48,295 nucleotides of DNA from an uncultured Pseudomonadales bacterium (GCA_964361885.1 CAYICL010000003.1:1-48295); one strand, 5' to 3'. Shown: positions 6,353 through 42,786, numbered from the stretch's first letter. The notes: generated by a model not told the origin, from the letters alone. Program-made: numbers and translations.

Positions 6353-7473
6353 ATGAAATCGCCATTAATTTAGCCATCGACACTTCCTGCGACGAAACCT
6401 GCGCCAGTGTTTCTTTTGGCCGCCGGATTTTATCCAATGTCATCTCTTCCCAAATCAACATTCACCAAAAATATGGCGGCGTTGTCCCGCACCTGGCCAA
6501 ACGGGCCCATCAGGAAAAAATCGAGCCTGTCGTTAAAGAGGCAATAAAAAGGTCTGTCCTTAAAGGACTCAAGTTGCGTCAGCAACCTGAAAAGAATTCA
6601 AAAAGGACAGACCTTTCTGGAATAAGCGCCATCGCCGTCACCGTCGGTCCGGGCTTGGCTCCGGCCCTTGAAGTTGGTATTAACTTTGCCAAAAATCTTG
6701 CCCGCCGGCTCAAACTCCCGTTAATTGCTGTCAATCATATGGAAGGCCACCTCTTATCCTGCCTTGCCTTGCCTCACACTCCCGGAGTGAAATCTTCAAA
6801 CACTCCGGGAGTGAAATTCCCCGCTCTCGGCCTGCTCGTCTCCGGTGGTCACACCCAGTTGGTTTTAGTCAAATCCATTGGTCTATACCAACTTTTGGGT
6901 GAAACTTTGGATGATGCAGCCGGTGAAGCTTTGGATAAGCTTAGTAAAATGTTAAAACTCGGCTATCCCGGCGGCCCGATTATCGAACAACTAGCTAAAC
7001 AATCCGCCGGCTGGCGGACCAGCACCATCCCCTTACCCGTCCCTTTGCAACATTCCCAAGACTTAAACTTCTCTTTTTCCGGTTTAAAAACCGCGGCTCT
7101 TTATACCATTCAAAAAGTTTACAAAGGACGGACCTTTGTAAAAAAACAATTCACTTACGACTTATGCGCTGCTTTCCAAACTGCCATTGCTAAAAGCTTA
7201 ACTGTCAAACTCCAAAAAGCGATTGAGCAATACCAACCAAAAAGCATTTTGTTAGGCGGCGGGGTGTTTTCCAATTTATATTTCCGTCGCCAAATCCGCT
7301 CGGCTGTTAAACCATTTCAACTACCTCTTTATCTTCCCTATTCCAAAAAACTTTTTACTGACAATGCTGCCATGATTGCCGTTCCCGCTTACTTTAAATT
7401 TCTTAAAAAAGACTTTGTCAAAAACATTAAGACCCTGGACCGCCAACCAAACCTTAACTTTGATACAATATAG
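6353..7473 (+). CDS. tsaD: tRNA N6-adenosine threonylcarbamoyltransferase TsaD (Kae1/Gcp family), with apparent 1-nt frame problem at codon 2-3
   Basis: The conserved N-terminus LAIDTSCDETCASV...GGVVPHLAKRAH...AVTVGPGL lies in frame 1 upstream of the listed TTG at 6574. HMEGH metal site and SGGHTQL are present. The only nearby ATG (6353) is one base out of frame. Confidence 0.8.
6548..6616. repeat. 69-nt palindromic cassette inside tsaD (14-bp perfect inverted repeat AAAGGTCTGTCCTT / AAGGACAGACCTTT), REP-core variant
   Basis: Read directly. Inner hairpin GTTGC-GTCA-GCAAC at 6573-6586. Encodes KRSVLKGLKLRQQPEKNSKRTDL. Confidence 0.85.
6777..6813. repeat. Family-2 doublet variant CACTCCCGGAGTG-N11-CACTCCGGGAGTG in tsaD
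   Basis: Read directly. Encodes TPGVKSSNTPGV. The spacer is the reverse complement, 10 of 11 nt, of the 303-339 spacer. Confidence 0.85.
7117..7143. repeat. REP copy (GTTTACAAAGGACGGACCTTTGTAAA) inside tsaD, in frame (VYKGRTFVK)
   Basis: Direct reading. 10-bp stem TTTACAAAGG/CCTTTGTAAA around ACGGA. Confidence 0.9.
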
Positions 7474-7477
7474 GCAA

Positions 7478-7552
7478 GTCCCTATAGCTCAACGGATAGA
7501 GCCCAGGTTTCCTAAACCTGTAATGAAGGTTCAATTCCTTCTGGGGACACCA
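7478..7552 (+). tRNA. tRNA-Arg (anticodon CCT), CCA encoded
   Basis: Manual cloverleaf: acceptor GTCCCTA/TGGGGAC, D arm GCTC-AACGGATA-GAGC, anticodon arm CAGGT-TTCCTAA-ACCTG, T arm GAAGG-TTCAATT-CCTTC, discriminator A plus CCA. Confidence 0.85.
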
Positions 7553-7553
7553 C

Positions 7554-8048
7554 TTATCGCTTCACTACCTTGCCAGCTGAGTTTAAGCATTCCGGCACCA
7601 TATCTTTAGGAAAATCATAACCTTCAATTTTGGCACACTCCGGCTGAGCTTGACCAGCATAAACAGCCACCCAACCAGAAGTAGTTTTCGCCGCCAGCCA
7701 GTAAGCACCGCCGACCGCCTCATACTCTTTGATATTACCGGTAGCGTGATTAGCCACGCGCCGGTTAATCGTAACTTCTGCCATGGCTTCGTTCAGATGG
7801 GTAAAGCGATAAACTGCTTGTTTAATTAACTCTGTTTCGTCAACAATAACCGCTGGAACCAATGAAGGACTGGGACTGGATCTCGGTACCAACGAAGGCT
7901 CAACTGACGATTCCGGGGAAACGCTGGCTAAAGGACTGGGTGAAACAGTCGGCTGCTGCTGCTTCCCAAAATAAAAAGCACCCATTCCCACCAAACTCAA
8001 AAGTCCCAAGCAAATAATAATTACCAAAACTTTGGTTTTTTTATCCAT
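7554..8048 (-). CDS. Membrane-anchored hypothetical protein with Ser/Pro-rich linker
   Basis: N-terminal TM helix (VLVIIICLGLLSLVGMGAFYF), then an SPSP-rich low-complexity linker and a small globular C-terminal domain. Confidence 0.55.
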   Translation of the reverse strand: MDKKTKVLVIIICLGLLSLVGMGAFYFGKQQQPTVSPSPLASVSPESSVEPSLVPRSSPSPSLVPAVIVDETELIKQAVYRFTHLNEAMAEVTINRRVANHATGNIKEYEAVGGAYWLAAKTTSGWVAVYAGQAQPECAKIEGYDFPKDMVPECLNSAGKVVKR

Positions 8049-8091
8049 CTAGTTTGGGATTATGATACAGTATAATAATAAAGTCAAACAG

Positions 8092-8167
8092 CGGGGTGTA
8101 GCGCAGTTGGTAGCGCGCTACGTTCGGGACGTAGAGGCCGGCGGTTCGAATCCGCCCACCCCGACCA
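8092..8167 (+). tRNA. tRNA-Pro (anticodon CGG), CCA encoded
   Basis: Manual cloverleaf: acceptor CGGGGTG/CACCCCG, D arm GCGC-AGTTGGTA-GCGC, anticodon arm CTACG-TTCGGGA-CGTAG, T arm GGCGG-TTCGAAT-CCGCC, then A plus CCA. Confidence 0.85.
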
Positions 8168-8173
8168 GAAATA

Positions 8174-8788
8174 ATGAAAGAAACCGATTTTATTGTCCAA
8201 CGAATACCATTAGATAAACCCGGACTATGTGCGCACGCTTTGGTTGTGTCTACCGCTCAGGCATTTGGGATAGATCTTGCTTGTCAGAAAGACATGCATG
8301 TTCATGTGGCGGATCCGATATGGGGTACCGAACCGTCCGAAATCACAAAAATGGCCCAAACGATTCTTCCCGATTCACACATTTGCGTCAAAGAAGGTTG
8401 GACATTTAGAGAACTGACCGAACTATTCGATAAAGGAAGAATCGTCGTAATACTTGATGTTACGGATATGTTAAGTAGGTTCGATAAAGTCTTGCAAGAG
8501 GAAGTTGGAAAAGATAAGGTTGATGGGCATTATGTTATCCTGGCAGGAATACACAACAGAATGGCCGTAATAATCGACCCTTCGGCAGATGAGATTGTTC
8601 ATGAAGATAATTCGGACGAACAAAATTTTGGTGTAAAAACAACAGATTGCGATAATATTTATCTTCTGCCACCGGCATCATTAGAGAAAATGTGGTGGGA
8701 TACCAATAAAAACGGAACGATAAATGACCATTGGGCTCTTGTGATGCTTCATCCCGATGATGACCCCAAAAATATCAAATTTAAATAA
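8174..8788 (+). CDS. Papain-fold (peptidase C39-like) cysteine peptidase domain protein
   Basis: Candidate catalytic Cys in PGLCAHALVVSTAQAFG and His in DGHYVILAGIHNRMAVIIDP, in the order and spacing typical of C39-like domains. No ABC transporter is attached. Confidence 0.45.
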   Translation: MKETDFIVQRIPLDKPGLCAHALVVSTAQAFGIDLACQKDMHVHVADPIWGTEPSEITKMAQTILPDSHICVKEGWTFRELTELFDKGRIVVILDVTDMLSRFDKVLQEEVGKDKVDGHYVILAGIHNRMAVIIDPSADEIVHEDNSDEQNFGVKTTDCDNIYLLPPASLEKMWWDTNKNGTINDHWALVMLHPDDDPKNIKFK

Positions 8789-8832
8789 CAATTAATTTGA
8801 GCGGGATAAGCATAGCTTGTCCGCGACCAAAA

Positions 8833-9306
8833 CTATCCTTCCAACTCTTCCTTTGAGTAAAGCAAACACTCGCTGGCACTGGTCCACTCAATCACTTCTT
8901 CATCTGCGAAAAGTAAGCCCTTTTCCTTATTAGCTGTCTCCTCTGAATCTGAAGCATGAATCAAGTTCAACTGTTGGCTAATGGAAAAATCACCCCTGAT
9001 ACTGCCAGCTTCTGCTTCTCTGCCTGATGTCGTCCCCACTAATTTTCTTGCTACTGCTACCGCATCAATCCCCTGCCATAACATGGCGATAATCGGCGCT
9101 GACTTCATAAACTTCTTTAAATCAGTAAAAAAACTCTTGTCTTTATGATGTGAATACCATTCATCCAGGATTTCATCTGTTAATCGCATCATCTTCAACC
9201 CCGCCAACTTTAAACCTTTGTGCTCAAACCTCTGGACTATCTCACCCAATAGACCCCTTTGTAATCCGTCCGGTTTTACTAACACCACTGACTGTTTCAC
9301 TGTCAT
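8833..9306 (-). CDS. ndk: Nucleoside diphosphate kinase
   Basis: VLVKPDGLQRGLLGEIVQRFEHKGLKL, GSIRGDF and NLIHASDS (active-site His). Confidence 0.85.
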   Translation of the reverse strand: MTVKQSVVLVKPDGLQRGLLGEIVQRFEHKGLKLAGLKMMRLTDEILDEWYSHHKDKSFFTDLKKFMKSAPIIAMLWQGIDAVAVARKLVGTTSGREAEAGSIRGDFSISQQLNLIHASDSEETANKEKGLLFADEEVIEWTSASECLLYSKEELEG

Positions 9307-10586
9307 ACTAATAGTTTAGCAAATTGATTTTGATTTTTAAAGGGGCCAACAATAGTTAAATTTAATTGCCGTTCTTGGAAAATTTTTCCTCCCACTCTCT
9401 GAATATCATCTATTTCCACCTTGTCAACTCCTTCAAGCATCTCTTGAATCGTCCTCACTTTGCCTTCTAAAAGCAAATCTTCCCCAAACTGCTCGGCCAC
9501 ATCCTGACTATCCTCCAAAGCCAGCGCCAATCTGCCTTTTAAATACTCCTTGGCCAACTTTAACTCTTTATCTTCAACCGGTTTCTGCCCTATTTTTTCA
9601 TATTCATTTAAAGTTAATTTAATCGACTCGTTAAGTTTTTTAACATCGCAGCCTGCTTGCGTTACCAAATAACCGGTTTCAAAAAAGCTGTCTATGCTGG
9701 ACCGGACATAATAAGCCAAACCCCTGTTTTCCCTGATCTCGTTCCACAGTCTCGAGCTGGTATTGCCGCCCAGAATCGTGTTTAAAAGCGCCAGAACATA
9801 CCGGTCTTTATTAGTCCTCTCAAACGTTCTGACTCCTAAGCAAAAGTGCGCCTGTTCGATTTTTTTCTCTATTACTTGTATTTGCGGTTTGTCTTGTTTA
9901 AAGCTTAATTTTCCCGGCTGGTCGCTGAATTTAACTTCTCCACTTTTTTCTGACTGAAATATCTTTTCAACTAGACCGGCTGTGCCGGCCGTAGCCGCAG
10001 ACGAAGGACCGGCTACTGCCAAAACCATGTTTTTCGGTTGATACCATTTATTTAAATGTTTGATAAACTTTGTTCTTGGTATTGATTTAATATTCTCCGC
10101 TGTGCCAATTACTGCTTGCCCTAAACAGGTCAGACTATAAACTTGTGATACAAAGGCCTCACTCACCTTGATCATCGGCTCATCCTGACGCATCTTAATT
10201 TCTTCTAAAATCACTCCCCGCTCGCGTTCCAGTTCCAACTCAGGCAGCCTGGGTTTAAAAATCAGTTGCTCTAAAAACTCCAAACCTAAGTTTAAATGTT
10301 TTTTGGCTACTTTAACCCAAAAACCAGTATTCTCCCATGAAGTAAAAGCATTAAATGCCCCACCCACGCTGTCAATCACTTTATTTACTGCTTGAGCCGT
10401 CGGCCACTTTTGAGTCCCTTTAAACACCATGTGTTCCACAAAATGTGACAAACCATTAATTTTCTTTTCTTCGTCCCTGCTTCCCACTCTGACTAATAAA
10501 ACCGCTGTCACCGACTCAGTTTCCATCGGCACCGTCACCAACGTCAAGCCATTAGCTAATTGATTAACCTTCTGCTTATACTTCAT
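9303..10586 (-). CDS. M16 (pitrilysin/insulinase) family zinc peptidase
   Basis: HxxEH zinc motif in GLSHFVEHMVFKGT. Two-domain length of 427 aa. Overlaps the ndk start by 4 nt. Confidence 0.8.
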   Translation of the reverse strand: MKYKQKVNQLANGLTLVTVPMETESVTAVLLVRVGSRDEEKKINGLSHFVEHMVFKGTQKWPTAQAVNKVIDSVGGAFNAFTSWENTGFWVKVAKKHLNLGLEFLEQLIFKPRLPELELERERGVILEEIKMRQDEPMIKVSEAFVSQVYSLTCLGQAVIGTAENIKSIPRTKFIKHLNKWYQPKNMVLAVAGPSSAATAGTAGLVEKIFQSEKSGEVKFSDQPGKLSFKQDKPQIQVIEKKIEQAHFCLGVRTFERTNKDRYVLALLNTILGGNTSSRLWNEIRENRGLAYYVRSSIDSFFETGYLVTQAGCDVKKLNESIKLTLNEYEKIGQKPVEDKELKLAKEYLKGRLALALEDSQDVAEQFGEDLLLEGKVRTIQEMLEGVDKVEIDDIQRVGGKIFQERQLNLTIVGPFKNQNQFAKLLV

Positions 10587-10601
10587 AGCCGTTATTGTAG
10601 C

Positions 10602-11717: not shown

Positions 11718-11718
11718 T

Positions 11719-12852: not shown

Positions 12853-12916
12853 ATCTTATAGTCCTAGTATATCACACTGCTTTTTTGTGTTATATTATTC
12901 CTACTGCCCCTAACTT

Positions 12917-14182: not shown

Positions 14183-14189
14183 CATCCGC

Positions 14190-15968
14190 CTACATCCGCT
14201 CCGGCGTGGCAATCCCCAGTAAACCCAAACCTTTTTTAATTATCTCGGCCGTTGCCTGAGTCAGCCACAGCCTGAACTCTTTTACCTCTTTTTCCGCCTT
14301 TAAAATCCGGTGCCGGTTGTAAAACCCATTATACTTTTGAGCCAAATCATATAAGAAATTGGCTACCAGATTTGGCGCCAACTCCGCCGCCGCCTGGCTG
14401 ACCACCTCTTCATACCGATACAACGTCCGCAGTAATAGGTCTTCCTCTTTTGAATAAGGTCCGACCTTGAGCGCCTTTGGCGCGTCCCGACGAATGTCGG
14501 GACTCAAGGTCGGACCTTTACTCAGCACGCTCTTGGCTCTGGCGTATGTATACTGCAGATACGGCCCTGAGTTACCCTCTAAACTAATCGATTCGTCAAA
14601 ATCAAAAGCCATGTCTTTGGTCCTGCCCACTTTTAAAATACTGTATTTAACTGCTCCCACTCCGATTTTTTCCGCTACTTCGTCAATGGAGGCTGTTTCC
14701 ACTTCGCTCTCACCTGACCGTTTCATAATTTCTTTAGTTTTTCCCACTGCTTGATCCAGCAAATCATCAATATATACCACCATACCTGTTCTTGAACTCA
14801 TCCTGCCCTTACCCTTAAGACTCATCCAGCCATAACTCACATGCTGACACTCTTTGATCTTCACTATCCCTAGCTGTTCGCAGACCGCAAACATCTGTTT
14901 TAAAGCTAATGACTGCTCCGGTCCGATCACCCAAAAAAGCTTATCCGGTTTAAAGGTCTCCTTTTTTAATTTGGTCAAAGCTAAATCCTGAGTAATATAC
15001 AAAGCCGTACCGTCTGCTTTAATCACCACCGTGTCCGGAATGCCGTACTTGGTTAAATCCGTGACGATTGCCCCTTCTTTTCCTTTTCTAAACACGCCTT
15101 TCTTCAAACCTAGCTCCACCAAGTCCTTCCCTTGCTGATAATGCTCATGCTCATGCCAAACCCTGTCCCATTTATTTCCCAGTCTCTTCAGCGTCAACTC
15201 CTGCCCCTGGTAGGAATATTCCAGTACCTTTGCCCATAAAGCCCGGTTCTTCTTGTCTCCGGCTTCCCAATCTATCACCATTTGCCTGACCGCCTTTTCT
15301 GTATCAGCTGTTTTACAATCCTCACTGGCCTTAACATATAACTCGTCTACAAATCTATCCGGCCTCATCTTGGCATTTTCCGGAGTCTGCCATTCATCCT
15401 GATGGTCATACCAATAATTAAGATCAATCATTTGCTTCTTTTCTTTGTGGCCAAACCTTAAATATCCCCACATTAATTTGGCAATGGCAATTCCCCGGTT
15501 ATTATCAACACAATCTCTGACCACCTGGCAACCTAAGGCTTCGAAAATATTCGCCAAGGCCATACCGATAATATTGTTGGTTAAATGTCCTAAATGCATG
15601 GCTTTATTAGGATTAGGTGACGTGTGTTCCACTAAATATTTTTTCCCCTGATAAGGTTTCTTCTCATCACCAATTAGCACTTGATTAATTTGATTGATAA
15701 GAACGTCACTTTTGATTGATATATTAATAAAACCTGCTCCGGCAACACTGATTTTTGAAGCTATTTTTTTCATGCTATCTTCGGCTTTTAACTTAGCTGC
15801 AATTGCTTCAGCTGTTTCTCGGGGTGACTGGCTTTTTAACGCCACATTGCAGCTATAATCCCCAAACGCCATGTTCTCCGGATGCTCCACAATAAACTTG
15901 GCTTTTTCTAATTTGAGTTCTTTTAAAATCTTCTCTATATTCTTATAAATCTGATGTGATAATTCCAT
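14190..15968 (-). CDS. argS: Arginine--tRNA ligase
   Basis: HTSPNPNKAMHLGHL (HIGH region), MSSRTG (KMSKS-like) and a C-terminal anticodon-binding domain ending ...ERM. Carries a 63-nt in-frame palindromic cassette at 14456-14518. Confidence 0.9.
   Translation of the reverse strand: MELSHQIYKNIEKILKELKLEKAKFIVEHPENMAFGDYSCNVALKSQSPRETAEAIAAKLKAEDSMKKIASKISVAGAGFINISIKSDVLINQINQVLIGDEKKPYQGKKYLVEHTSPNPNKAMHLGHLTNNIIGMALANIFEALGCQVVRDCVDNNRGIAIAKLMWGYLRFGHKEKKQMIDLNYWYDHQDEWQTPENAKMRPDRFVDELYVKASEDCKTADTEKAVRQMVIDWEAGDKKNRALWAKVLEYSYQGQELTLKRLGNKWDRVWHEHEHYQQGKDLVELGLKKGVFRKGKEGAIVTDLTKYGIPDTVVIKADGTALYITQDLALTKLKKETFKPDKLFWVIGPEQSLALKQMFAVCEQLGIVKIKECQHVSYGWMSLKGKGRMSSRTGMVVYIDDLLDQAVGKTKEIMKRSGESEVETASIDEVAEKIGVGAVKYSILKVGRTKDMAFDFDESISLEGNSGPYLQYTYARAKSVLSKGPTLSPDIRRDAPKALKVGPYSKEEDLLLRTLYRYEEVVSQAAAELAPNLVANFLYDLAQKYNGFYNRHRILKAEKEVKEFRLWLTQATAEIIKKGLGLLGIATPERM
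14456..14518. repeat. 63-nt nested palindromic cassette inside argS (15-bp perfect inverted repeat AAGGTCCGACCTTGA / TCAAGGTCGGACCTT enclosing two hairpins)
   Basis: Read directly. Inner hairpins GCGCC-TTT-GGCGC (14471-14483) and GTCCCGAC-GAAT-GTCGGGAC (14484-14503). Confidence 0.9.
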
Positions 15969-15981
15969 ATTCTTATTTATT

Positions 15982-16725: not shown

Positions 16726-16753
16726 ATCGTCTAAATTATACTATAGTTAATCT

Positions 16754-18157
16754 ATGAAAATCGTTATTGGCTACCCGCCGATTAAATCTTCAAAAGGCGT
16801 TCCGCTTTTATCCCAAAACCGCCAGTTCCAGTGGTTTTCTTCCCCTACTTACGTCTACCCGGTTATTCCTGCCTCAGCCGCCACTTTATTAAAAACCAAT
16901 GGTTATCAAGTCAGCTGGCTGGACGGTATTGCCGAAAACTGGAGCTATAACCAATGGTTTAACCAATTACAAGCCGAGTCGCCAGACTTGCTCTTTATCG
17001 AAACCAAAACTCCGGTGATCAAACAACACTGGCAGATCATCAAACATCTAAAATCTAAAATCCCTGATCTAAAAATCTGTTTGGCCGGTGACCACGTCAC
17101 TGCCTTACCCAAAGAATCGTCTAAAAACTGCCCGGTTGATTATATTGTTGTTGGCGGCAACTATGATTTATCTTTACTTTCTATAGCAAACAGTATCAAC
17201 AAAACTAAACAAAAAGTTTACCAAGGACGGACCTTTGTAAATTTACCATTCATCGATCGGCAGTTAACCAAATGGCGTCTCTATGCTTACAAAAACGGCA
17301 ACTTTAAATTTACCCCGGCTGCTTACACCATGGCCGGCCGCGACTGCTGGTGGCGTCAAAACGGCGGCTGTACTTTTTGCTCCTGGACCACCCTTTTCCC
17401 CAAATTTATGGTCCGCACTCCAAAAAATCTTTTAGACGAAATCGACCAGCTCATCAAATTAGGCATTAAAGAAGTCTTTGACGATACCGGAACTTTCATG
17501 ACCGGTAACTGGTTAAAACAGTTCTGCCAAGGCATGATCAAGCGTGGCTATAATAAAAAAATCGTTTTTGGCTGCAACATGCGCTTTGGAGTTTTAACTC
17601 AAAAAGACTATTACTTAATGGCCAAAGCCAATTTTAGATTCCTTCTTTTTGGTTTAGAATCAGCCAGTCAAACCACCCTCGACCGCCTAAACAAAGGCAT
17701 TAAAATCAATCAAGTTGAACCAGAATTAAAAATTATTAAATCTGCCGGCGGCCGACTTGAACCTCATGTTACTTGTATGGTCGGCTATCCCTGGGAAAGT
17801 TTAGCCGACGCTCAAAATACCGTTAACTTTACCAAAAATCTCTTTAAAAAAGGCTTAATCAGCTCACTCCAAGCCACCATTGTCATCCCCTATCCCGGCA
17901 CCAAACTCTTTGCCCAAGCCAAGAAAAACCATTGGCTCAAAACTTTGGACTGGAATAAATATGACATGCGCCAACCAATCCTTAAATCCCCTATCCCCGA
18001 TAAAAAACTGATGCAGCTCACCCGGAATATTTACCTTAGCTGTTTCACTCCTCAATTTATTTTCAAAAAATTGCTCTCGATCCGCTCTTTGGCTGACATT
18101 AAATTTTTATTTAGATCGGTCCGAAAATTCGTCGGCCAGCTGCTGGATTTTTCATGA
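16754..18157 (+). CDS. B12-binding-domain radical SAM protein
   Basis: N-terminal Rossmann-like B12-binding region; Cys cluster GRDCWWRQNGGCTFCSW; radical-SAM core (FGLESASQTTLDRLNKG). REP copy in frame at 17216-17241, in the inter-domain linker. Confidence 0.7.
   Translation: MKIVIGYPPIKSSKGVPLLSQNRQFQWFSSPTYVYPVIPASAATLLKTNGYQVSWLDGIAENWSYNQWFNQLQAESPDLLFIETKTPVIKQHWQIIKHLKSKIPDLKICLAGDHVTALPKESSKNCPVDYIVVGGNYDLSLLSIANSINKTKQKVYQGRTFVNLPFIDRQLTKWRLYAYKNGNFKFTPAAYTMAGRDCWWRQNGGCTFCSWTTLFPKFMVRTPKNLLDEIDQLIKLGIKEVFDDTGTFMTGNWLKQFCQGMIKRGYNKKIVFGCNMRFGVLTQKDYYLMAKANFRFLLFGLESASQTTLDRLNKGIKINQVEPELKIIKSAGGRLEPHVTCMVGYPWESLADAQNTVNFTKNLFKKGLISSLQATIVIPYPGTKLFAQAKKNHWLKTLDWNKYDMRQPILKSPIPDKKLMQLTRNIYLSCFTPQFIFKKLLSIRSLADIKFLFRSVRKFVGQLLDFS
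17216..17241. repeat. REP copy (GTTTACCAAGGACGGACCTTTGTAAA) inside the radical SAM gene, in frame (VYQGRTFVN)
   Basis: Direct reading. One mismatch to consensus. Confidence 0.9.
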
Positions 18158-23583: not shown

Positions 23584-23605
23584 CTCTTTAGTATACTATA
23601 GAGGT

Positions 23606-23998
23606 ATGATTCAAATTAAAGTCGGCGGTAAACTGATTGCTTTAATTATCAAAGCTAAAACTCAACCCAAGATAAATCAGTTTATAACTGATCCTCACAA
23701 TCCTCTCCAGCTGGGCTTTCTCCGATTTTCTAAAAATCGCCAAGTAAAGCCCCACCAACACCGCGCTCTTGATAAAACCACTCACCAAAATCAGGAATTT
23801 ATTTATGTTGTCTCCGGCCAAATTCTGGCTGAATTTTTTTACAAAGGACGGACCTTTGTAAAACATCTGCTTAATCCCGGAGATTGCTTATTGCAACTAC
23901 AAGGCGGCCATGGGTTTACCATGCTTAAACCCACCAAGCTCATTACCATTAAGCAAGGTCCTTACTCCAGCCGCCAGCGCGAAAAAATCGAAATATAG
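23606..23998 (+). CDS. Cupin-fold protein (WbuC/sugar-modifying cupin-like)
   Basis: I place the start at ATG 23606 (MIQIKVGG) rather than the listed 23426, which would run through the divergent gene's start. HQH...QEFIYVVSG...GDCLL...GGHGF is a cupin pattern. REP copy in frame at 23838-23863. Confidence 0.5.
   Translation: MIQIKVGGKLIALIIKAKTQPKINQFITDPHNPLQLGFLRFSKNRQVKPHQHRALDKTTHQNQEFIYVVSGQILAEFFYKGRTFVKHLLNPGDCLLQLQGGHGFTMLKPTKLITIKQGPYSSRQREKIEI
23838..23863. repeat. REP copy inside the cupin gene, in frame (FYKGRTFVK)
   Basis: TTTACAAAGGACGGACCTTTGTAAAA read directly. Confidence 0.9.
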
Positions 23999-24966
23999 TC
24001 TTCGGCTATCTTATCCCAGCTAAACTGTTTGAGCCACTGCTCTGGTCGATACCGCTTTTTTGATAAAGCTAATTTTAATTTTTCCACGTACTCTTCTCCC
24101 CAAACATCTTTGACATAAATCCCATAATCACCCAATATTTCTCTTCTTAACTCATCATCCGTCGCTACTACCGGCAAACCTGAAGCCAGCGCCTCTAAAT
24201 AGACAATGCCAAACGCTTCGGTCGAATCGCTGACTAAAGTAAACACATCCGCTGCTCGATAGACCGCCGGCATCGCTTCATGTTTAAATTTTTTCCCTCC
24301 TCCGGCCCACAACAAATTTACCGCTCCGAAGCCCTGCCTTGCCGGCAGGCAGGCTTGGCGAAGGGCGGCTACCGCCCTTCTAGTCGCTTCCACCCGTTTA
24401 TATTTATCTTCCGAAGCAACGCATAAAATTATTGGCCCCTTCAATTTTAGGTCCAATTTCCCACCCTCAGGCTTAAACCGTTGTAAATTTACTCCGTTAG
24501 GAATCACTTCAATCCTGACTCCCCGGCCGTAAAACTTTTTCGCCCAGCGCCGATTTCTTTCGCTTAAAGCCACAAACACATCCGGCCGCATCAGTAAATT
24601 CCACCCGTCGCACCAACCTAAACCCGCCTGTCCGCTAATCACCAGTTTGGCACCGGTTTGCCAGCAAAACAAACGGCATAATAAACTCTGCCAGCCGCCG
24701 TTAAATGGCATGATTATATCCGGTCGCCACGGCTTTAATTTTTCCAGCGCCTGCCGCGTTTCCCACCGCATTGTCCGGTGATACTTGTCAATCATCAAAG
24801 TCTTTAACCAAGGACGGACCTTTGTAAAAGATTGCCAGTCGACTGAATTGACACTAATTACTTTTACCTGGTGCTGCTTTTGCCAGCGCCGACTCAGTTC
24901 TTTCACTACCGTCTCTACCCCCCGATCAATTCGGCCACTGGTAAACGATAAAACCGCAATTTTCAT
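23962..24966 (-). CDS. GT4 (GT-B fold) glycosyltransferase
   Basis: MKIAVLSFTSGRIDRGVETVV...SDSTEAFGIVYLEALASGLPVVATDD (E-x7-E type motif). Confidence 0.8.
   Translation of the reverse strand: MKIAVLSFTSGRIDRGVETVVKELSRRWQKQHQVKVISVNSVDWQSFTKVRPWLKTLMIDKYHRTMRWETRQALEKLKPWRPDIIMPFNGGWQSLLCRLFCWQTGAKLVISGQAGLGWCDGWNLLMRPDVFVALSERNRRWAKKFYGRGVRIEVIPNGVNLQRFKPEGGKLDLKLKGPIILCVASEDKYKRVEATRRAVAALRQACLPARQGFGAVNLLWAGGGKKFKHEAMPAVYRAADVFTLVSDSTEAFGIVYLEALASGLPVVATDDELRREILGDYGIYVKDVWGEEYVEKLKLALSKKRYRPEQWLKQFSWDKIAEDYISIFSRWRLE
24803..24829. repeat. Degenerate REP copy inside the GT4 gene (minus strand reads FTKVRPWLK)
   Basis: TTTAACCAAGGACGGACCTTTGTAAAA. The left arm is altered relative to consensus. 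Confidence 0.8.
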
Positions 24967-27233: not shown

Positions 27234-27239
27234 ATTGTT

Positions 27240-29987: not shown

Positions 29988-29988
29988 G

Positions 29989-31023: not shown

Positions 31024-31067
31024 TGCCGGATTAGCTTCGCACCATTTATTTAAGACAAATAATATTT

Positions 31068-33925: not shown

Positions 33926-33948
33926 AATAGTATATTATTATACTTTAG

Positions 33949-35546: not shown

Positions 35547-36291
35547 GTTTACAAAGGACGGACCCTTGTAAACTATGTATAATACAAATATGCCTGCCAA
35601 AAATATTATCAAAACCTATATTCAAAACGGTTATTATCACCTTTATAATCGCGGAGTCAACAAACGAAACATCTTTAAAAATCAGCAAGATTACGGTGTT
35701 TTTCTTGGCTACTTGAAACAATATCTCTCCCCAAATGATAAAAATCCTTGTTTAAGAAACATCACTGTTAAAAACAAAGTTTATAAAATTCTGACTCCCC
35801 CATGTAAAAACTATCATCATGATATCAAACTCCTGGCTTACTGTTTAATGCCTAATCATTTTCATTTATTAATTAAACAATTTTCCGAAAGAGGCATTGC
35901 CTCACTGATGAAATCTCTCGGCACCCGCTACACCATGTACTTTAACAAACGTTACCAACGCACCGGTCCTTTATTCCAAAGCCGTTATAAGGCCGTTTTA
36001 ATTGATAACGAAAACCAGCTGCTTCATCTCTCCCGCTATATTCATCTTAATCCCCTACCCAAAAACCCAACTCAACCCTCTAGTTATCCTAATTATCTTG
36101 GTCTAAACCATGCCACTTGGATTCAGCCCCAAGAAATCCTTACTTTCTTTAAAACCGCCCGCAAAACCAATCTGAATGATATTAGTTCATATCAAAGTTT
36201 TATTGAAGACTATTCTGAACCGCCTAAAACATTTTTAGAAAACCTTACCCTTGATTAGATTGTTTACAAAGGACGGACCCTTGTAAACTAT
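35547..36291 (+). mobile_element. REP/RAYT unit: IS200-like Y1 (HUH) transposase gene bracketed by two identical 27-nt (30-nt with flank) palindromic REP copies
   Basis: GTTTACAAAGGACGGACCCTTGTAAACTAT occurs at 35547-35576 and 36262-36291 in direct orientation. The unit fills the gap between two convergent gene ends exactly. Confidence 0.8.
35575..36258 (+). CDS. REP-associated tyrosine transposase (RAYT; IS200/IS605 TnpA-like Y1 HUH enzyme)
   Basis: YHLYNRGVNKRNIF, HUH motif in LMPNHFHLLIK, FQSRYKAVLI and the catalytic-Tyr region LSRYIHLNP. The start may be ATG 35590 (MPAKN), which lies 6 nt after a TATAAT. Confidence 0.8.
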   Translation: MYNTNMPAKNIIKTYIQNGYYHLYNRGVNKRNIFKNQQDYGVFLGYLKQYLSPNDKNPCLRNITVKNKVYKILTPPCKNYHHDIKLLAYCLMPNHFHLLIKQFSERGIASLMKSLGTRYTMYFNKRYQRTGPLFQSRYKAVLIDNENQLLHLSRYIHLNPLPKNPTQPSSYPNYLGLNHATWIQPQEILTFFKTARKTNLNDISSYQSFIEDYSEPPKTFLENLTLD

Positions 36292-39798: not shown

Positions 39799-39814
39799 TT
39801 GTTATAAGATCATA

Positions 39815-40390
39815 TTAATAAACCGCTACCTTTTCCTTAATCGCTTCATACACATTACTTTTCACCGCTTTTTTTGTCAGCAACTCCTCCACTGACCCAT
39901 ACGGCCGGTTTGAAATAATCTTTTCTGCCGTGGCCGGCCCCACTCCCCAAAGCGTATCCAGCTCGGCGCTTGACGCGGTATTGATGTTTACAAAGGACGG
40001 ACCTTTGTAAACATTTTGAGAAGGTCCGTCCTTATTGGATTCTTCTTGACTCGGAATATATACCTTCTGGCCGTCAACAATTTTGGCAGCCAAATTTAAG
40101 TTTTTATTCAACCATTCCCTGTCTGCTTTTTCTCCTAAGCCGCCGGCGACGACTAAGGCATCATTCATTCTGGCTCCAAGGCTTAACTTATACAATCCGG
40201 GCTTCATCACTGCTCCGGCTACATCCACATACACATACACCTCTTTTTCCTGCTCTACGATCTCTACCCCTCTATCAGTCGCTTTATTGCTGATCAATAT
40301 TGCTGAAAACACTCCGACAATCAATAACAGTATTCCCGCCAATCCCACGGTCAACCAATATGGTTTGGCTTTCAATTCCTTTATCCTCAT
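39815..40390 (-). CDS. comEA: ComEA DNA receptor (SLBB domain plus helix-hairpin-helix)
   Basis: VAGAVMKPGLYKLSLGARMNDALVVAGG (SLBB) and INTASSAELDTLWGVGPATAEKIISNRPYGSVEEL (HhH). The REP doublet sits in the inter-domain linker. Confidence 0.8.
   Translation of the reverse strand: MRIKELKAKPYWLTVGLAGILLLIVGVFSAILISNKATDRGVEIVEQEKEVYVYVDVAGAVMKPGLYKLSLGARMNDALVVAGGLGEKADREWLNKNLNLAAKIVDGQKVYIPSQEESNKDGPSQNVYKGPSFVNINTASSAELDTLWGVGPATAEKIISNRPYGSVEELLTKKAVKSNVYEAIKEKVAVY
39986..40033. repeat. REP doublet (full REP 39986-40012 plus inverted core AAGGTCCGTCCTT at 40021-40033) inside comEA
   Basis: Read directly. Encodes NKDGPSQNVYKGPSFVN on the minus strand. Confidence 0.9.
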
Positions 40391-42786
40391 ACCACCAGAT
40401 TCACCAGTTTTCCCGGCACAAACACCTCTTTGACTACTTTTTTCCCTGCCAAATAAACCTTCACCTTTTCGCTTAACTTAGCCATTGCCAGGACTTTTTC
40501 CTTATCACCGGCTTGTTCCCGATCCAACACCAGCCTGTCTCTAAGCTTAGCATTCACTTGAATTACCACTGTTACCGTCTCGCCCTTGGCAAACTCTTTA
40601 TCATATTCCGGCCAAGCTTGCTGATGCACCGAAAACTTACCTCCAAGCTTCTGCCACAACTCCTCGCTTATATACGGTGCCATCGGCGCCAATAGCAAAA
40701 TCAAAGTCTTAACTGCCTCTGAAAACACCTCCGAGGTGTGAACTTCTTTCACCTCGGAGGTGAATAATCTCTCCAACTCATTAACATACTCCATTAAAGC
40801 CGCAATCCCCACATTAAACCTAAACTCTTTCATTGCCTGAGTGACTCGCTTAACTGTCTGGTGTTGCAACCGACGCAAGCCTTCAAGGTCCGTCCTTGTA
40901 GGCTTATTGTTTACAAAGGACGGACCTTTGTAAACCAACTTCCACACCCGGTTTAGAAACCGCCTCATTCCTTTCATGCCTGTGTCTTGAAAATCACCGC
41001 CCTGATCATACGGCCCGATAAACATTAGATACATCCGCAAAGCATCCACTCCGTACTTATCTATATACTCATCCGGATTGACAATATTGCCTTTACTCTT
41101 ACTCATCTTGGCTCCGTCTTTAATAATCAAGCCGTGCCCATACAAAAACGGAAACGGCTCATCTCCCAAACTCTTAGGAATATAGCCAAAATCCTGCAAA
41201 GCCATCCAGATAAATCGGGAATACATCAGGTGCAGCACAGCATGTTCTGCTCCGCCGATATAAGCGTCAACCGGCAGCCACTTCTTGGTAACTTCCGGAT
41301 CAAAAGGCAAATTAGACACTCCCGAGGTGGCAGATTTTTTCACCTCGGGAGTGTGATTGACCGACGGATAGCGCAGGAAATACCACGAACTGTCCAAAAA
41401 TGTGTCGCTCACATCTGTTTCCCGTTTCGCTTTGCCTTTGCATGAAGGGCATTTGGTATATAACCAATCATCTCCGGCCTTCTGAAGCGGCGACTTGCCG
41501 TCTCCAGTCGGTTTAAAATCTTTGACGTACGGCAGTTTCACCGGCAGATTCTTTTCTTTTTCTGCTTGCCATTTACATTTCTCGCAATAAATCATCGGAA
41601 TCGGCGGCCCCCAGTACCGCTGCCGGCTGATACACCAATCCCTTAACCGGTAATTTATCTTTTTCCTCACTCCGCCTAATTTTGCCAACTGTTTAAAAAC
41701 TTCATCTTGATTTTTCAAAACATCTACTACCAATAACTTATGTTTCTTGGCAAAAGCCATATCTCTCTCGTCATGAGCCGGCACCCCCATCACCGCTCCG
41801 GTACCATAATCTTTCAGCACAAAATCGGCTATCCAAATCGGCATTAACTTGCCTGTTAATGGATGAGTCACTTTGTAACCAGTATCCACTCCCGTTTTAC
41901 TTTTCTCTCCTTCTTTTCTCTGTTGCTCAGTTTTATCTAAAGCTTTTTTTACATAATTCATCACTGCTTTATTTGTGGTCAAACTGCTCACCAAAGGATG
42001 TTCCGGGGCTAAACATAAAAAAGTGGCTCCAAAAATCGTGTCCAGTCTGGTAGTAAAGGTGGTAACTTTTTTATCCATGCCTTTAACTTGCCAGTCAACT
42101 TCGACTCCCTTGCTCCGGCCGATCCAGTTTCTCTGAACCGTCTTGATCTTCTCCGGCCAATCAATCTTGTCAATATTGTCTAAAAGTCTTTGAGCATACT
42201 TAGTTATCTTAAAAAACCACTGGAAAGTTTCTTTTTTTTCCGTCACGGTTTTACACCGCTCGCATAATCCGGCTTCTACCTGTTCATCGGCCAGCACCGT
42301 TTTGCATGACGGACACCAGTTAACCAAAGATTTCTTCCTATAAGCCAATCCTTTCTCAAACATCTTAATAAACAACCACTGGGTCCATTTATAGTATTCC
42401 GGATCATAAGTTTCTAACCGGTTCTCCCAGGAAAACCGGTTGCCGATCCGTGATAATTGTTCGTAAAAATGTTTCTCGCTAATCTTGGCTTGATCTGCCG
42501 GATGCTTAGCGATCTGAATCGCATAGTTTTCCGAGTGAATCCCAAACCCGTCCAACCCGATCGGCTCAAACACCTGATAGCCATTCATCGCCTTGTACCT
42601 GCCGTAAAAGTCTGCCCCGGTAAAAGCATACATATTGCCCACATGTAAACCCTCTGCCGACGGATACGGAAACATCATCAGGTTGTAAAATTTCTTCTTG
42701 GGGTTTTTCAAATCCACTTGATATATCTTGGCTTTCTGCCACTTTTTTTCCCACTTGGTCTCAATAGTTTTGGAATTATAATCCAT
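40387..42786 (-). CDS. leuS: Leucine--tRNA ligase
   Basis: PYPSAEGLHVGNMYAF (HIGH), CxxC zinc motifs, KMSKSKGN and RFLNRVWKLV. Three in-frame palindromic cassettes. Confidence 0.9.
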   Translation of the reverse strand: MDYNSKTIETKWEKKWQKAKIYQVDLKNPKKKFYNLMMFPYPSAEGLHVGNMYAFTGADFYGRYKAMNGYQVFEPIGLDGFGIHSENYAIQIAKHPADQAKISEKHFYEQLSRIGNRFSWENRLETYDPEYYKWTQWLFIKMFEKGLAYRKKSLVNWCPSCKTVLADEQVEAGLCERCKTVTEKKETFQWFFKITKYAQRLLDNIDKIDWPEKIKTVQRNWIGRSKGVEVDWQVKGMDKKVTTFTTRLDTIFGATFLCLAPEHPLVSSLTTNKAVMNYVKKALDKTEQQRKEGEKSKTGVDTGYKVTHPLTGKLMPIWIADFVLKDYGTGAVMGVPAHDERDMAFAKKHKLLVVDVLKNQDEVFKQLAKLGGVRKKINYRLRDWCISRQRYWGPPIPMIYCEKCKWQAEKEKNLPVKLPYVKDFKPTGDGKSPLQKAGDDWLYTKCPSCKGKAKRETDVSDTFLDSSWYFLRYPSVNHTPEVKKSATSGVSNLPFDPEVTKKWLPVDAYIGGAEHAVLHLMYSRFIWMALQDFGYIPKSLGDEPFPFLYGHGLIIKDGAKMSKSKGNIVNPDEYIDKYGVDALRMYLMFIGPYDQGGDFQDTGMKGMRRFLNRVWKLVYKGPSFVNNKPTRTDLEGLRRLQHQTVKRVTQAMKEFRFNVGIAALMEYVNELERLFTSEVKEVHTSEVFSEAVKTLILLLAPMAPYISEELWQKLGGKFSVHQQAWPEYDKEFAKGETVTVVIQVNAKLRDRLVLDREQAGDKEKVLAMAKLSEKVKVYLAGKKVVKEVFVPGKLVNLVV
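40726..40762. repeat. Family-2 doublet CACCTCCGAGGTG-N11-CACCTCGGAGGTG in leuS
   Basis: Read directly. Encodes TSEVKEVHTSEV on the minus strand. Confidence 0.85.
40885..40935. repeat. REP doublet (inverted core AAGGTCCGTCCTT at 40885-40897 plus full REP 40909-40935) inside leuS
   Basis: Read directly. Encodes VYKGPSFVNNKPTRTDL on the minus strand. Confidence 0.9.
41317..41353. repeat. Family-2 doublet CACTCCCGAGGTG-N11-CACCTCGGGAGTG in leuS
   Basis: Read directly. The arms are identical to the 303-339 copy. Encodes TPEVKKSATSGV on the minus strand. Confidence 0.9.

What the first reader, a model, noticed from the sequence alone, without database searches (positions are those of the whole stretch)
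7117..40935. REP palindromes are embedded in frame inside protein-coding genes, including essential ones
Apart from the two RAYT-flanking copies, all six other copies of the 27-nt palindrome lie inside CDSs:
- tsaD, 7117: VYKGRTFVK
- radical SAM, 17216: VYQGRTFVN
- cupin, 23838: FYKGRTFVK
- GT4, 24803
- comEA, 39986: VYKGPSFVN
- leuS, 40909: VYKGPSFVN

The element is 27 nt, exactly 9 codons. Four of its six frames are open. All five intact intragenic copies use the same relative frame (GTT TAC AAA GG...), so either orientation gives V-Y-K-G-x-x-F-V-N.

Compared by eye with E. coli LeuRS and TsaD, the insertions fall in variable loops or inter-domain linkers: after RVWKLV in LeuRS, after LKTAALYTIQ in TsaD, and in the SLBB-HhH linker of ComEA. 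REPs are classically intergenic. In-frame intragenic palindromes are best known from Rickettsia palindromic elements, which have no linked RAYT. This may therefore be an undescribed mode of REP/REPIN colonisation.
Basis: partly seen in the sequence, partly recalled or inferred. Interest (0 to 1): 0.9.

Follow-up and report, generated by a model that had tools for sequence, protein, structure and literature searches.

The report
In-frame REP palindromes inside CPR genes
A tiny-genome groundwater bacterium (Candidatus Beckwithbacteria) carries a 27-base hairpin repeat, linked to its own transposase-like gene, that sits mostly inside protein-coding genes and is read through as extra loop peptides; the behaviour is known from Rickettsia and a few other bacteria but apparently not yet reported in this phylum.

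Summary
Eight copies of GTTTACAAAGGACGGACCTTTGTAAAC lie in the window, where chance predicts none. Two abut a Y1/HUH transposase gene of RAYT type. Six lie inside genes: tsaD, a radical SAM gene, a WbuC-like cupin, GT4, comEA and leuS. All five intact intragenic copies use the same frame. The frame that carries a TAA stop is never used.

Orthologue alignments place the copies in hypervariable loops or linkers, and most relatives lack them. A syntenic relative keeps the RAYT, its flanking REPs and the comEA and cupin copies. Another syntenic relative has no RAYT at that site and no REP in 22 kb. REP DNA is 93-100% identical between orthologues whose genes are 65-76% identical. Its outer stem changes in step with each genome's own REP type, so the copies are actively maintained.

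At least three other palindrome families behave the same way and often occupy the same loops.

"Undescribed" is overstated. Intragenic GTAG and CGTC REPs, some in tRNA synthetase genes, were reported in 2013 (PMC3733652), and Rickettsia palindromic elements earlier. New here are the host phylum, an untagged REP class, intragenic dominance at about 96% coding density, and repeated reuse of the same loops. Verdict: a new variant of a known kind.

The parts
35575..36258 (+). RAYT-type Y1/HUH transposase gene (227 aa). It carries the motifs NHFHLL and SRYIHLNP.
   Evidence: Pfam Y1_Tnp scores 50.6 bits, above its cut-off. The best NCBIfam family is REP_Tyr_transpos at 49.8 bits, below its cut-off of 80. 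It is 80% identical to the syntenic gene in L016, 63% to L003 and 49% to L001, and all four are flanked by the same REP.
35547..35573 (+). REP copy directly upstream of the RAYT gene, starting one base after the stop codon of the GT2 gene
36262..36288 (+). REP copy directly downstream of the RAYT gene. Its last base overlaps the stop codon of the TPR gene on the - strand.
7117..7143 (+). REP in tsaD, phase 0, peptide VYKGRTFVK
   Evidence: In orthologues the same loop holds a REP, a different palindrome, PAL2 or only a short loop. In the AF2 model it is the end of a helix plus the loop between two helices.
17216..17242 (+). REP in the B12-binding/radical SAM gene, phase 0, peptide VYQGRTFVN
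   Evidence: It lies in the hypervariable linker between the two domains. The 81%-identical orthologue P0257 has the REP at the same site with the loop flipped.
23837..23863 (+). REP in the WbuC-like cupin gene (about 23603-23998), phase 0, peptide FYKGRTFVK
   Evidence: The L016 orthologue has the identical 27 of 27 nt, while the rest of the gene is 69% identical.
24803..24829 (+). Degenerate REP in the GT4 gene (- strand). It is read in the phase that normally contains TAA, and the stop has been lost by mutation (FTKVRPWLK).
39986..40034 (+). REP (39986-40012) plus a truncated inverted partner (40020-40034) in the SLBB-HhH linker of comEA (- strand gene), peptide NKDGPSQNVYKGPSFVN
   Evidence: The same doublet is present in L016 with 25 of 27 and 15 of 15 nt identical, against 65% for the rest of the gene. 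The RAYT-less relative L022 has an unrelated linker there.
40877..40935 (+). Inverted REP doublet in leuS (- strand gene): a diverged partner at 40877-40905 and a canonical REP at 40909-40935. Peptide VYKGPSFVNNKPTRTDLEG.
   Evidence: It lies in a variable segment at the start of the anticodon-binding domain. Orthologues carry other palindromes or short loops there. Thermus LeuRS has an unrelated segment of similar length.
6545..6619 (+). 75-nt element of REPIN/MITE type in tsaD with 14-bp terminal inverted repeats (AAAGGTCTGTCCTT / AAGGACAGACCTTT). Peptide KRSVLKGLKLRQQPEKNSKRTDLSG.
   Evidence: It is 73 of 75 nt identical in L019 and L020, against about 75% for the gene, and is absent from L021. 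It falls in a loop with pLDDT below 50.
6777..6813 (+). PAL2 palindrome (13-bp arms, 11-nt loop) in tsaD, peptide HTPGVKSSNTPGVK
40726..40762 (-). PAL2 palindrome in leuS, peptide TSEVKEVHTSEV
41316..41354 (-). PAL2 palindrome in leuS, peptide HTPEVKKSATSGV, 12 aa longer than Thermus LeuRS at this point
303..339 (+). PAL2 palindrome in an uncharacterised ORF (1-1002), peptide TPEVFADFTSGV
14456..14518 (-). 63-nt hairpin element with 15-bp terminal inverted repeats, in frame inside argS
   Evidence: folding energy -32.6 kcal/mol, z = -9.2.
5494..5530 (+). Hairpin containing one PAL2 arm, in the Sua5-TsaE inter-domain linker. Relatives carry the REP in phase 2 at this site.

Best explanation
The window comes from a Candidatus Beckwithbacteria genome (Patescibacteria/CPR) with about 96% coding density. 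It hosts a REP-RAYT system.

**The element.** The REP is a hairpin with an 11-bp stem and a 5-nt loop. Its conserved core is TTACAAAGG-ACGGA-CCTTTGTAA. One RAYT-type Y1/HUH transposase gene is flanked by it.

**How copies arise (inferred).** The RAYT protein binds the folded REP in single-stranded DNA and cuts and joins it, as shown for the E. coli enzyme and for IS200/IS605 transposases. New copies or doublets therefore appear around the chromosome.

**Which copies survive (inferred from the pattern).** Almost no intergenic DNA is available. Survivors therefore share three properties:
- Their length is a multiple of three: 27 nt, or a doublet.
- They sit in one of the two stop-free phases. 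Most are in the phase that gives V-Y-K-G-(R-T/P-S)-F-V-N.
- They lie in flexible surface loops or domain linkers.

They are then translated through as part of the protein.

**Copies are maintained, not relics (shown).**
- Their DNA stays nearly identical between species whose host genes have diverged by 25-35%.
- The stem changes by compensatory pairs.
- Orthologous copies carry their own genome's REP variant. That implies ongoing re-insertion or gene conversion.

**The same habitat is shared (shown).** Several other palindrome families use the same loops, so the same protein loops are occupied by different elements in different lineages.

**Shown:** repeat identity, the RAYT linkage in four genomes, frames, lineage specificity, loop location, DNA-level conservation, covariation and a relative with no RAYT at the syntenic site and no REP.
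**Inferred:** RAYT-driven mobility, translation of the peptides and near-neutrality.
For: - **Repeat.** 8 copies against 0 expected. As single-stranded DNA the hairpin folds at -9.5 kcal/mol, z = -6.7.
- **RAYT linkage.** The RAYT gene has REPs at both ends in the window, L016, L003 and L001, although the RAYT proteins are only 49-80% identical. The family is large: 366 clusters at 50% identity reach E <= 1e-30.
- **Vertical inheritance.** L016 keeps the gene order leuS-comEA-comEC-...-TPR-RAYT-GT2.
- **Natural control.** L022 is syntenic but has no RAYT between the TPR and GT2 genes. It has 0 REP and 0 PAL2 in 22.4 kb, against 0.21-0.22 REP cores per kb in the window and L016.
- **Frames.** The window gives 5 of 5 in phase 0. 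Across all loci I count about 11 independent events in phase 0, 3 in phase 2, and 1 in phase 1 that has lost its stop.
- **Lineage-specific loop location.**
- **DNA-level conservation.**
  - Cupin REP: 27/27 nt identical against 0.69 for the rest of the gene.
  - comEA: 25/27 plus 15/15 against 0.65.
  - The 75-nt tsaD element: 73/75 against 0.74-0.76.
- **Covariation.** 6 of 10 stem pairs show compensatory changes, and 0 of 500 shuffles reach this. The outer pair is T-A in every window copy and G-C in every L019-L021 copy, including the orthologous tsaD copy.
- **Coding density.** About 96%.
Against: - No mobility has been observed. No polymorphic filled and empty site was found within one population.
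- The REP lacks the GTAG or CGTC tag of described REP classes. The RAYT protein scores below NCBIfam's RAYT cut-off.
- Many copies substitute for a native loop of similar length rather than adding 27 nt. Simple insertion does not predict this.
- The 75-nt tsaD element is hyper-conserved, spacer included, but is single-copy in all DNA held. That fits a functional nucleic-acid element better than a mobile one.
- The uniform orientation in the window (8 of 8) is not reproduced elsewhere. Across genomes the count is 17 concordant with GC skew and 9 discordant.
- Only 48 kb of this genome was seen.
- There is no evidence that the peptides are translated.
Confidence: 0.72

Rival explanations
1. The intragenic palindromes are host-functional nucleic-acid signals kept by selection. 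Examples would be mRNA or DNA hairpins that pause ribosomes or polymerases at domain boundaries, protein-binding sites, or uptake or recombination signals. On this view the RAYT gene is a domesticated caretaker or a bystander, and the copies are not selfish insertions that merely survive.
For: - REP DNA and the 75-nt tsaD element are 93-100% identical between species whose genes are 65-76% identical, and this includes synonymous sites and the spacer.
- The stem evolves by compensatory change.
- Hairpins recur at the same loop or linker positions in many orthologues, although their sequences differ.
- The RAYT gene is more conserved than LeuRS (80% against 69%) and keeps its syntenic position.
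Against: - Many close orthologues have no hairpin at these sites and are otherwise intact: P0245, P0253 and P0262 for radical SAM, P0168 for TsaD, and all of L022.
- The host genes are functionally unrelated.
- The orientation at one site flips between relatives.
- Concerted change of all copies in a genome is what REPIN populations show, and it needs no host function.
- No function was tested.
Confidence: 0.17
2. The palindromes spread mainly by replacing sequence at existing hairpins or microhomologous sites. The route would be gene conversion, template switching or annealing of excised single-stranded REP DNA at replication forks, not classical insertion. This would explain why the same loops are reused and why loop length is often unchanged.
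For: - REP-coded residues align to native residues with little net length change in four cases:
  - Wzy: +1 aa.
  - TsaD in L020 and L021: shorter than in neighbouring orthologues.
  - The ComEA linker.
  - The cupin: about the same length as the WbuC profile.
- The C-terminal TsaD hairpin is REP-like in L019 and L020 and canonical in L021.
- Different families occupy exactly the same site.
- The REP sits at the same radical SAM boundary in both orientations.
Against: - Tolerance alone could concentrate independent insertions in the few permissive loops, and later deletions could restore loop length.
- No donor or recipient intermediates were seen.
- Alignments in hypervariable loops are unreliable.
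Confidence: 0.25
3. VYKG(RT/PS)FVN is a native, selected protein motif, and the DNA palindrome is incidental.
For: The peptide is compatible with a beta-hairpin. A similar native segment (FKFLKKDFVKN) exists at the TsaD C-terminus.
Against: - The same DNA occurs outside genes at both ends of the RAYT gene in four genomes.
- It is read as three different peptides according to orientation and phase.
- It is absent from over 97% of orthologues.
- Its synonymous positions are invariant.
Confidence: 0.02

Closest known systems
Intragenic GTAG and CGTC REPs (Di Nocera, De Gregorio & Rocco 2013, BMC Genomics 14:522; PMC3733652)
   Same: - Short REP hairpins lie entirely inside ORFs of known function, including tRNA synthetase genes.
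- They occur as singles or dimers, and dimers encode 20-30 aa.
- The GTAG class is associated with RAYT genes.
- The authors argue that the insertions are tolerated in modular proteins.
   Different: - Those REPs are mostly intergenic, and intragenic copies are a minority.
- They carry a terminal GTAG or CGTC tag, which this REP lacks.
- Their hosts are Proteobacteria, Verrucomicrobia and others with ordinary coding density.
- That paper does not report frame bias, reuse of the same loop by different families, or nucleotide conservation across orthologues.
Rickettsia palindromic elements (RPE-1 to RPE-8; Ogata et al. 2000 and 2002, cited from my own knowledge and through PMC3733652)
   Same: - Palindromic repeats are inserted in frame in many unrelated genes, including essential ones, in a small and gene-dense genome.
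- They are located in surface regions.
- Several families coexist.
   Different: - Most RPEs are longer, about 100-150 nt for RPE-1.
- No dedicated transposase is known for them.
- The host is an alphaproteobacterial intracellular parasite.
- No sequence relationship to RPEs was tested here.
REPIN-RAYT systems of Pseudomonas and Enterobacteria (Bertels & Rainey 2011, PMC3116915; Nunvar et al. 2010)
   Same: - A single RAYT gene is flanked by its REPs.
- There are inverted REP doublets.
- The system is inherited vertically at a syntenic locus.
- Each genome has its own REP master sequence.
   Different: - Those REPINs are defined and analysed in extragenic space.
- Here only the two RAYT-flanking copies of the 8 are extragenic.
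- The doublet spacers are 6-9 nt, not about 70-110 bp.
IS200/IS605 single-strand transposition (IS608 and ISDra2; from my own knowledge)
   Same: - The enzyme is a Y1/HUH protein that recognises a DNA hairpin.
- The conserved core begins with TTAC, which is the IS608 target tetranucleotide. This is a lead, not a test.
- All 8 window copies share one orientation on a strand with strong GC skew.
   Different: - No TnpB gene is present, and no multi-copy full-length IS.
- The mobile unit would be the hairpin alone.
- The strand bias is not reproduced in related genomes.

Membership tests
REP-RAYT system | Y1/HUH transposase fold with an HUH motif and a catalytic tyrosine | tested here: met
   Pfam Y1_Tnp scores 50.6 bits against a cut-off of 23. 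The motifs NHFHLL and SRYIHLNP are visible in the sequence.
REP-RAYT system | Scores as an equivalog of NCBIfam REP_Tyr_transpos (NF047646) | tested here: inconclusive
   It is the best-scoring family, but at 49.8 bits against a cut-off of 80. L001 scores 45.1 and L016 43.5. There is no sequence match to any solved structure.
REP-RAYT system | The RAYT gene is immediately flanked by copies of the dispersed REP | tested here: met
   Seen in the window (35547 and 36262), L016, L003 and L001. The two flanks are direct in the window and inverted in L016.
REP-RAYT system | A 20-40 nt imperfect palindrome dispersed in many copies | tested here: met
   8 copies plus 2 partner cores in 48 kb, against 0 expected. 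There are 40 non-redundant copies across the loci held.
REP-RAYT system | Copies lie in extragenic space | tested here: not met
   6 of 8 window copies are inside ORFs that have Pfam or NCBIfam support.
REP-RAYT system | Terminal GTAG or CGTC tag (Di Nocera classes) | tested here: not met
   The consensus of 40 copies is TTACAAAGGACGGACCTTTGTAA with variable flanks and no terminal GTAG or CGTC.
REP-RAYT system | Single-copy RAYT gene, vertically inherited | tested here: inconclusive
   The RAYT gene is syntenic and 80% identical in L016. Copy number per genome cannot be tested from 48 kb.
REP-RAYT system | The RAYT protein binds and cleaves its REP as single-stranded DNA | not testable with these tools
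   This needs biochemistry.
REPIN | Two REPs in inverted orientation that form one long hairpin and act as the replicative unit | tested here: inconclusive
   Inverted doublets occur in leuS, comEA, L005 and L010 with 6-9 nt spacers. They fold as two adjacent hairpins. Most window copies are singlets.
Rickettsia palindromic elements | In-frame palindromic insertion in surface loops of unrelated proteins | tested here: met
   This is a behavioural resemblance only.
Rickettsia palindromic elements | Sequence membership of RPE-1 to RPE-8 | not tested
   No RPE library was on hand. Rfam gave only two tRNAs in the window.
IS200/IS605 insertion sequence | Multi-copy element carrying tnpA, with or without tnpB, between subterminal hairpins | tested here: not met
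   There is one tnpA-like gene, no tnpB, and no second copy in 48 kb.

The most novel reading that the evidence does not exclude
In these ultra-compact CPR genomes, protein loops of housekeeping genes are the main habitat of a RAYT-maintained hairpin population. Elements do not insert at random. They home to existing hairpins or microhomologous 'landing pads' and replace them. Fixed loops in aminoacyl-tRNA synthetases, TsaD and other proteins are therefore repeatedly overwritten by successive palindrome families. On this reading, selfish single-stranded-DNA elements act as a standing generator of loop sequence in essential proteins, and homogenisation continues inside coding sequence.
Probability: 0.25. 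Interest if true: 0.8.

Novelty: new variant of a known kind. Interest (0 to 1): 0.6.

Why it matters
- **A REP-RAYT system in Patescibacteria.** Within the literature I could search, no paper connected REPs or RAYTs with this phylum. Here, with almost no intergenic DNA, the repeat lives inside genes.
- **A natural experiment.** It shows which protein loops tolerate 9-25 extra or replaced residues.
- **A practical warning.** These hypervariable, repeat-derived segments sit in marker genes such as leuS, argS and tsaD that are used for CPR phylogenomics and annotation.
- **A tractable case for a wider question.** One can ask whether RAYT-type enzymes maintain hairpin populations by re-insertion or by conversion. 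Orthologous intragenic copies can be aligned codon by codon against a diverging host gene, which intergenic REPs do not allow.

Tried and rejected
- **Genome-wide census.** The source genome is not in the GTDB representative set. The metagenome scan gave 14 short contigs. The census is therefore limited to about 250 kb of window and related loci.
- **Strand bias as evidence for lagging-strand insertion.** The window gives 8 of 8 in one orientation. Across genomes the count is 17 concordant and 9 discordant with GC skew. The loop also flips at one orthologous site, so I dropped this as evidence.
- **Phage origin.** Neither the REP nor the 75-nt tsaD element has an exact match in viral contigs.
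- **Solved-structure relatives.** None was found by sequence for the RAYT protein or the cupin.
- **REP peptides inside other RAYT proteins.** None occurs in the 150 best representatives. Only L001 shows this.
- **The 75-nt tsaD element as a multi-copy REPIN.** It is single-copy in everything held.
- **Exact insertion boundaries and target site.** No filled/empty pair was close enough. The 'empty' orthologous sites usually hold another palindrome.
- **AF2 model of TsaD.** Confidence was only moderate (mean pLDDT 67), so I used it only to say that the three insert sites fall in loops.
- **Alternative genetic code or pseudogenes as an explanation.** Rejected. The ORFs are long and intact under table 11, and catalytic motifs are conserved.

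Full report
**1. The observation**

- The palindrome GTTTACAAAGGACGGACCTTTGTAAAC matches at 7117, 17216, 23837, 35547, 36262, 39986 and 40909 with at most 2 mismatches. 100 dinucleotide-preserving shuffles gave none.
- A looser pattern and the repeat finder add the degenerate copy at 24803.
- All eight copies have the asymmetric loop ACGGA on the + strand.
- As single-stranded DNA the unit folds into an 11-bp stem with a 5-nt loop (-9.5 kcal/mol, z = -6.7).

| Gene | Coordinates |
|---|---|
| TsaD | ORF open from about 6304 to 7473 |
| B12-binding/radical SAM | 16754-18157 |
| GT4 | 23962-24966, - strand |
| ComEA (SLBB + HHH_3) | 39815-40390, - strand |
| LeuRS | 40387-42786, - strand |
| Y1_Tnp protein | 35575-36258 |

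- The 'cupin' (about 23603-23998) gets only a weak WbuC-cupin match, below its cut-off.
- The stated peptides are right. All five intact intragenic copies are in phase 0 of their gene, on either strand.
- Phase 1 contains TAA in both orientations, so four of six frames are open.
- The GT4 copy is read in that third phase and has lost the stop by mutation.
- The RAYT-type gene starts 1 nt after one copy and ends 3 nt before the other. This 742-nt unit exactly fills the space between a GT2 gene and a TPR gene.

**2. Organism and context**

- The best LeuRS, TsaD and radical SAM relatives are named Candidatus Beckwithbacteria or Patescibacteria.
- Identical or nearly identical fragments occur in Hainich groundwater assemblies: L002, L006, L012 and L018.
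- Coding density in the window is about 96%.
- GC skew is strongly negative throughout.
- Intergenic DNA amounts to only 1.5-2 kb in 48 kb.

**3. The REP is tied to the RAYT-type gene**

- The same core flanks RAYT homologues in four genomes: the window, L016 (NCBI GCA_026397255.1), L003 and L001 (a different Patescibacteria MAG). The RAYT proteins are 80%, 63% and 49% identical to the window's.
- L016 is syntenic with the window (leuS-comEA-comEC-...-TPR-RAYT-GT2), so the gene was inherited vertically.
- L022 is a further syntenic relative (LeuRS 65% identical). It has the TPR and GT2 genes adjacent with no RAYT between them, and no REP or PAL2 core in 22.4 kb. The window and L016 have 0.21-0.22 REP cores per kb.
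- The RAYT protein passes Pfam Y1_Tnp and has HUH and YIHxNP motifs. It scores below the cut-off of NCBIfam's RAYT model and matches no solved structure by sequence.
- Its family is large: 366 clusters at 50% identity reach E <= 1e-30.

**4. The intragenic copies are lineage-specific and lie in variable loops**

- *LeuRS.* The REP doublet VYKGPSFVNNKPTRTDLEG lies in a segment where orthologues carry other palindrome-derived peptides or short loops. Examples are TPGVK..TPGV in P0003 and P0012, KVRS..RTDL in P0015 and KVGPC in P0018. Thermus LeuRS has an unrelated segment of similar length there.
- *TsaD.* The loop after LKTAALYxIQ holds one of the following:
  - the REP (window, L020, L021);
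  - a different palindrome, CAGTAAGTTCGGTTCTTACTG, in L019 and many others;
  - PAL2 (P0126, P0134);
  - only a few residues (P0168).
- *Radical SAM.* The REP is in the hypervariable linker between the B12-binding and radical SAM domains.
  - Some orthologues have nothing there (P0245, P0253, P0262).
  - One has the REP in the other open phase (P0251, which is L004).
  - Others have further palindrome families.
- *ComEA and cupin.* These copies are shared with L016. L022 has an unrelated ComEA linker.
- *Frequency among the best 120 orthologues of each protein.* REP peptides occur in 1 LeuRS, 3 TsaD and about 3 radical SAM proteins.
- *AF2 model of TsaD.* Confidence is moderate (mean pLDDT 67). 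The REP peptide falls at the end of a helix and in the loop before the next helix. The other two tsaD inserts fall in loops with pLDDT below 50.

**5. This is a DNA element, not a peptide motif**

- The same DNA is read as KGRTF, KGPSF or LQRTDLC/LQRSVLC, depending on orientation and phase.
- It also lies outside genes, next to the RAYT gene.
- The table compares orthologues:

| Comparison | REP or element | Rest of gene |
|---|---|---|
| Cupin REP | 27/27 nt identical | 69% |
| comEA REP + partner | 25/27 + 15/15 | 65% |
| 75-nt tsaD element | 73/75 | 74-76% |

- Across 40 non-redundant copies the invariant core is TTACAAAGGACGGACCTTTGTAA.
- The next stem pair out is T-A in every window copy and G-C in every L019-L021 copy. 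This includes the orthologous tsaD copy.
- 6 of 10 stem pairs show compensatory changes, and 0 of 500 shuffles reach that number.
- Copies therefore evolve in concert within a genome. This implies ongoing re-insertion or conversion rather than passive decay.

**6. Frame use**

- I counted independent intragenic events across everything held.

| Phase | Events | Where |
|---|---|---|
| 0 | about 11 | two tsaD sites, radical SAM, cupin, comEA, leuS, two inside the RAYT gene of L001, a GT1 gene (L010), ArgRS (L013), Wzy (L019) |
| 2 | 3 | radical SAM of L004, Dus of L005/L014, Sua5-TsaE of L020/L021 |
| 1 | 1 | GT4, stop lost by mutation |

- Sources.
- The stop-containing phase is avoided. This is the main argument that the elements are translated rather than bypassed.
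- The preference for phase 0 over phase 2 is suggestive only (one-sided binomial, about 0.03).

**7. Other families behave the same way**

- PAL2 (CACTCCCGAGGTG-N11-CACCTCGGGAGTG) occurs four times, all inside ORFs and all in one relative phase: 303, 6777 in tsaD, and 40726 and 41316 in leuS. PAL2 peptides occur in 11 of 120 LeuRS and 12 of 120 TsaD orthologues.
- tsaD also carries a 75-nt element with 14-bp terminal inverted repeats (6545-6619).
- argS carries a 63-nt hairpin with 15-bp terminal inverted repeats (14456-14518; -32.6 kcal/mol).
- The Sua5-TsaE linker holds another hairpin exactly where relatives hold the REP.
- At least 9 of about 48 genes in the window contain such an element.

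**8. What does not fit simple insertion**

- Several copies replace native residues with little or no change in loop length:
  - Wzy gains 1 aa.
  - TsaD of L020 and L021 is shorter than in neighbouring orthologues.
  - The ComEA linker keeps its length.
  - The cupin matches the WbuC profile end to end.
- The same site can hold the REP in either orientation.
- 'Empty' orthologous sites usually hold another palindrome.
- These facts are compatible with strong selection for a few permissive loops followed by length restoration.
- They also allow a replacement or conversion mechanism, which I list as a rival and as the novel case.

**9. Comparison with what is known**

- REPINs and RAYTs are described and analysed in extragenic space (PMC3116915).
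- Intragenic REPs are nevertheless on record.
- Di Nocera et al. 2013 (PMC3733652) list GTAG and CGTC REPs lying entirely within ORFs in several species.
  - Opitutus terrae has the most GTAG copies.
  - The host genes include tRNA synthetases and DNA-repair genes.
  - Dimers encode 20-30 aa.
  - Rickettsia RPE-4 and RPE-6 are equated with CGTC REPs.
- Searches combining REP or RAYT terms with Patescibacteria/CPR terms returned no paper that connects them.
- The kind of element is therefore known. The following appear to be new:
  - the host phylum;
  - a REP class without a terminal tag;
  - dominance of intragenic copies;
  - recurrent use of the same loops by several families;
  - a codon-level demonstration of concerted evolution.

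**10. Verdict**

The elements are real, RAYT-linked, in frame and lineage-specific, but this is not an undescribed mode.
- Novelty: a new variant of a known kind.
- Interest: 0.6.

Noticed in passing
window 6340-6420: tsaD has no canonical start codon in frame. The ATG that is homologous to the orthologues' start (about 6353) is followed by a 1-nt shorter T-run (TTAA-TTTAGCC against TTAATTTTAGCC) and so runs into a stop. This is either an assembly error in a homopolymer or a real frameshift with a non-canonical start further on.
   Followed up: partly
window 6545-6619: A 75-nt inverted-repeat element in tsaD is 97% identical in three genomes whose tsaD genes are about 75% identical, and the 40-nt spacer is conserved too. 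It is single-copy in all DNA held and absent from L021. Its conservation is unexplained. It may be a functional RNA or DNA element, or a recent transfer.
   Followed up: partly
window 303-339, 6777-6813, 40726-40762, 41316-41354 (single arm at 5506-5518): A second palindrome family, PAL2, lies entirely inside ORFs and always in one relative phase (T-P/S-E/G-V ... T-P/S-E/G-V). No transposase gene is linked to it in the window. It is more widespread among orthologues than the REP.
   Followed up: partly
window 14456-14518: A 63-nt hairpin with 15-bp terminal inverted repeats (-32.6 kcal/mol) lies in frame inside the arginyl-tRNA synthetase gene. Its core, AAGGTCGGACCTT, resembles the REP core. 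The related peptides KGPTLKV..RSDLN occur in radical SAM orthologues.
   Followed up: partly
L001 1729-2400 (- strand): In another Patescibacteria MAG, the RAYT gene itself contains two in-frame copies of its own REP (NYKGRTFVRRS and NNKGPSFVIRE), in addition to the flanking copies.
   Followed up: partly
window 1-48295: GC skew is strongly negative across the whole window (-0.14 to -0.32), and 31 of 48 genes are on the - strand. An unusual strand disparity has been reported for a Microgenomates genome (PMC7143001; title and abstract only).
   Followed up: no
P0257 (radical SAM orthologue) against window 17216-17242: The REP sits at exactly the same boundary, just before LPFIDR, but with the 5-nt loop inverted (KGPSF instead of QGRTF). 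This is either an independent insertion in the opposite orientation or a hairpin-loop inversion.
   Followed up: no
L016 11236-11270; P0018: Another palindrome, CACTCCGGAGAGTAAAAATATTCCACTCCGGAGTG, encodes PESKNIPLRS. It appears at different positions in two LeuRS orthologues (P0003 and P0018). This suggests yet another mobile in-frame family.
   Followed up: no
L022 1033-1068, 7726-7747, 14628-14647: The RAYT-less relative has its own palindromes, built on GAGCTACACGTGTAGCTC at two sites, with a related one at 1033-1068. The copy at 14628-14647 lies between genes. This is the classical extragenic pattern, in contrast with the window.
   Followed up: no
L021 3960-3990; L019 and L020, same tsaD site; window about 7390-7425: The C-terminal TsaD segment FKFLKKDFVKN (window) is REP-like palindromic DNA in L019 and L020 (TTTAACAAAGG-N5-CCTTTGTTAAA) and a canonical REP in L021. 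Either an old REP is decaying and being renewed, or a native hairpin is being converted.
   Followed up: partly
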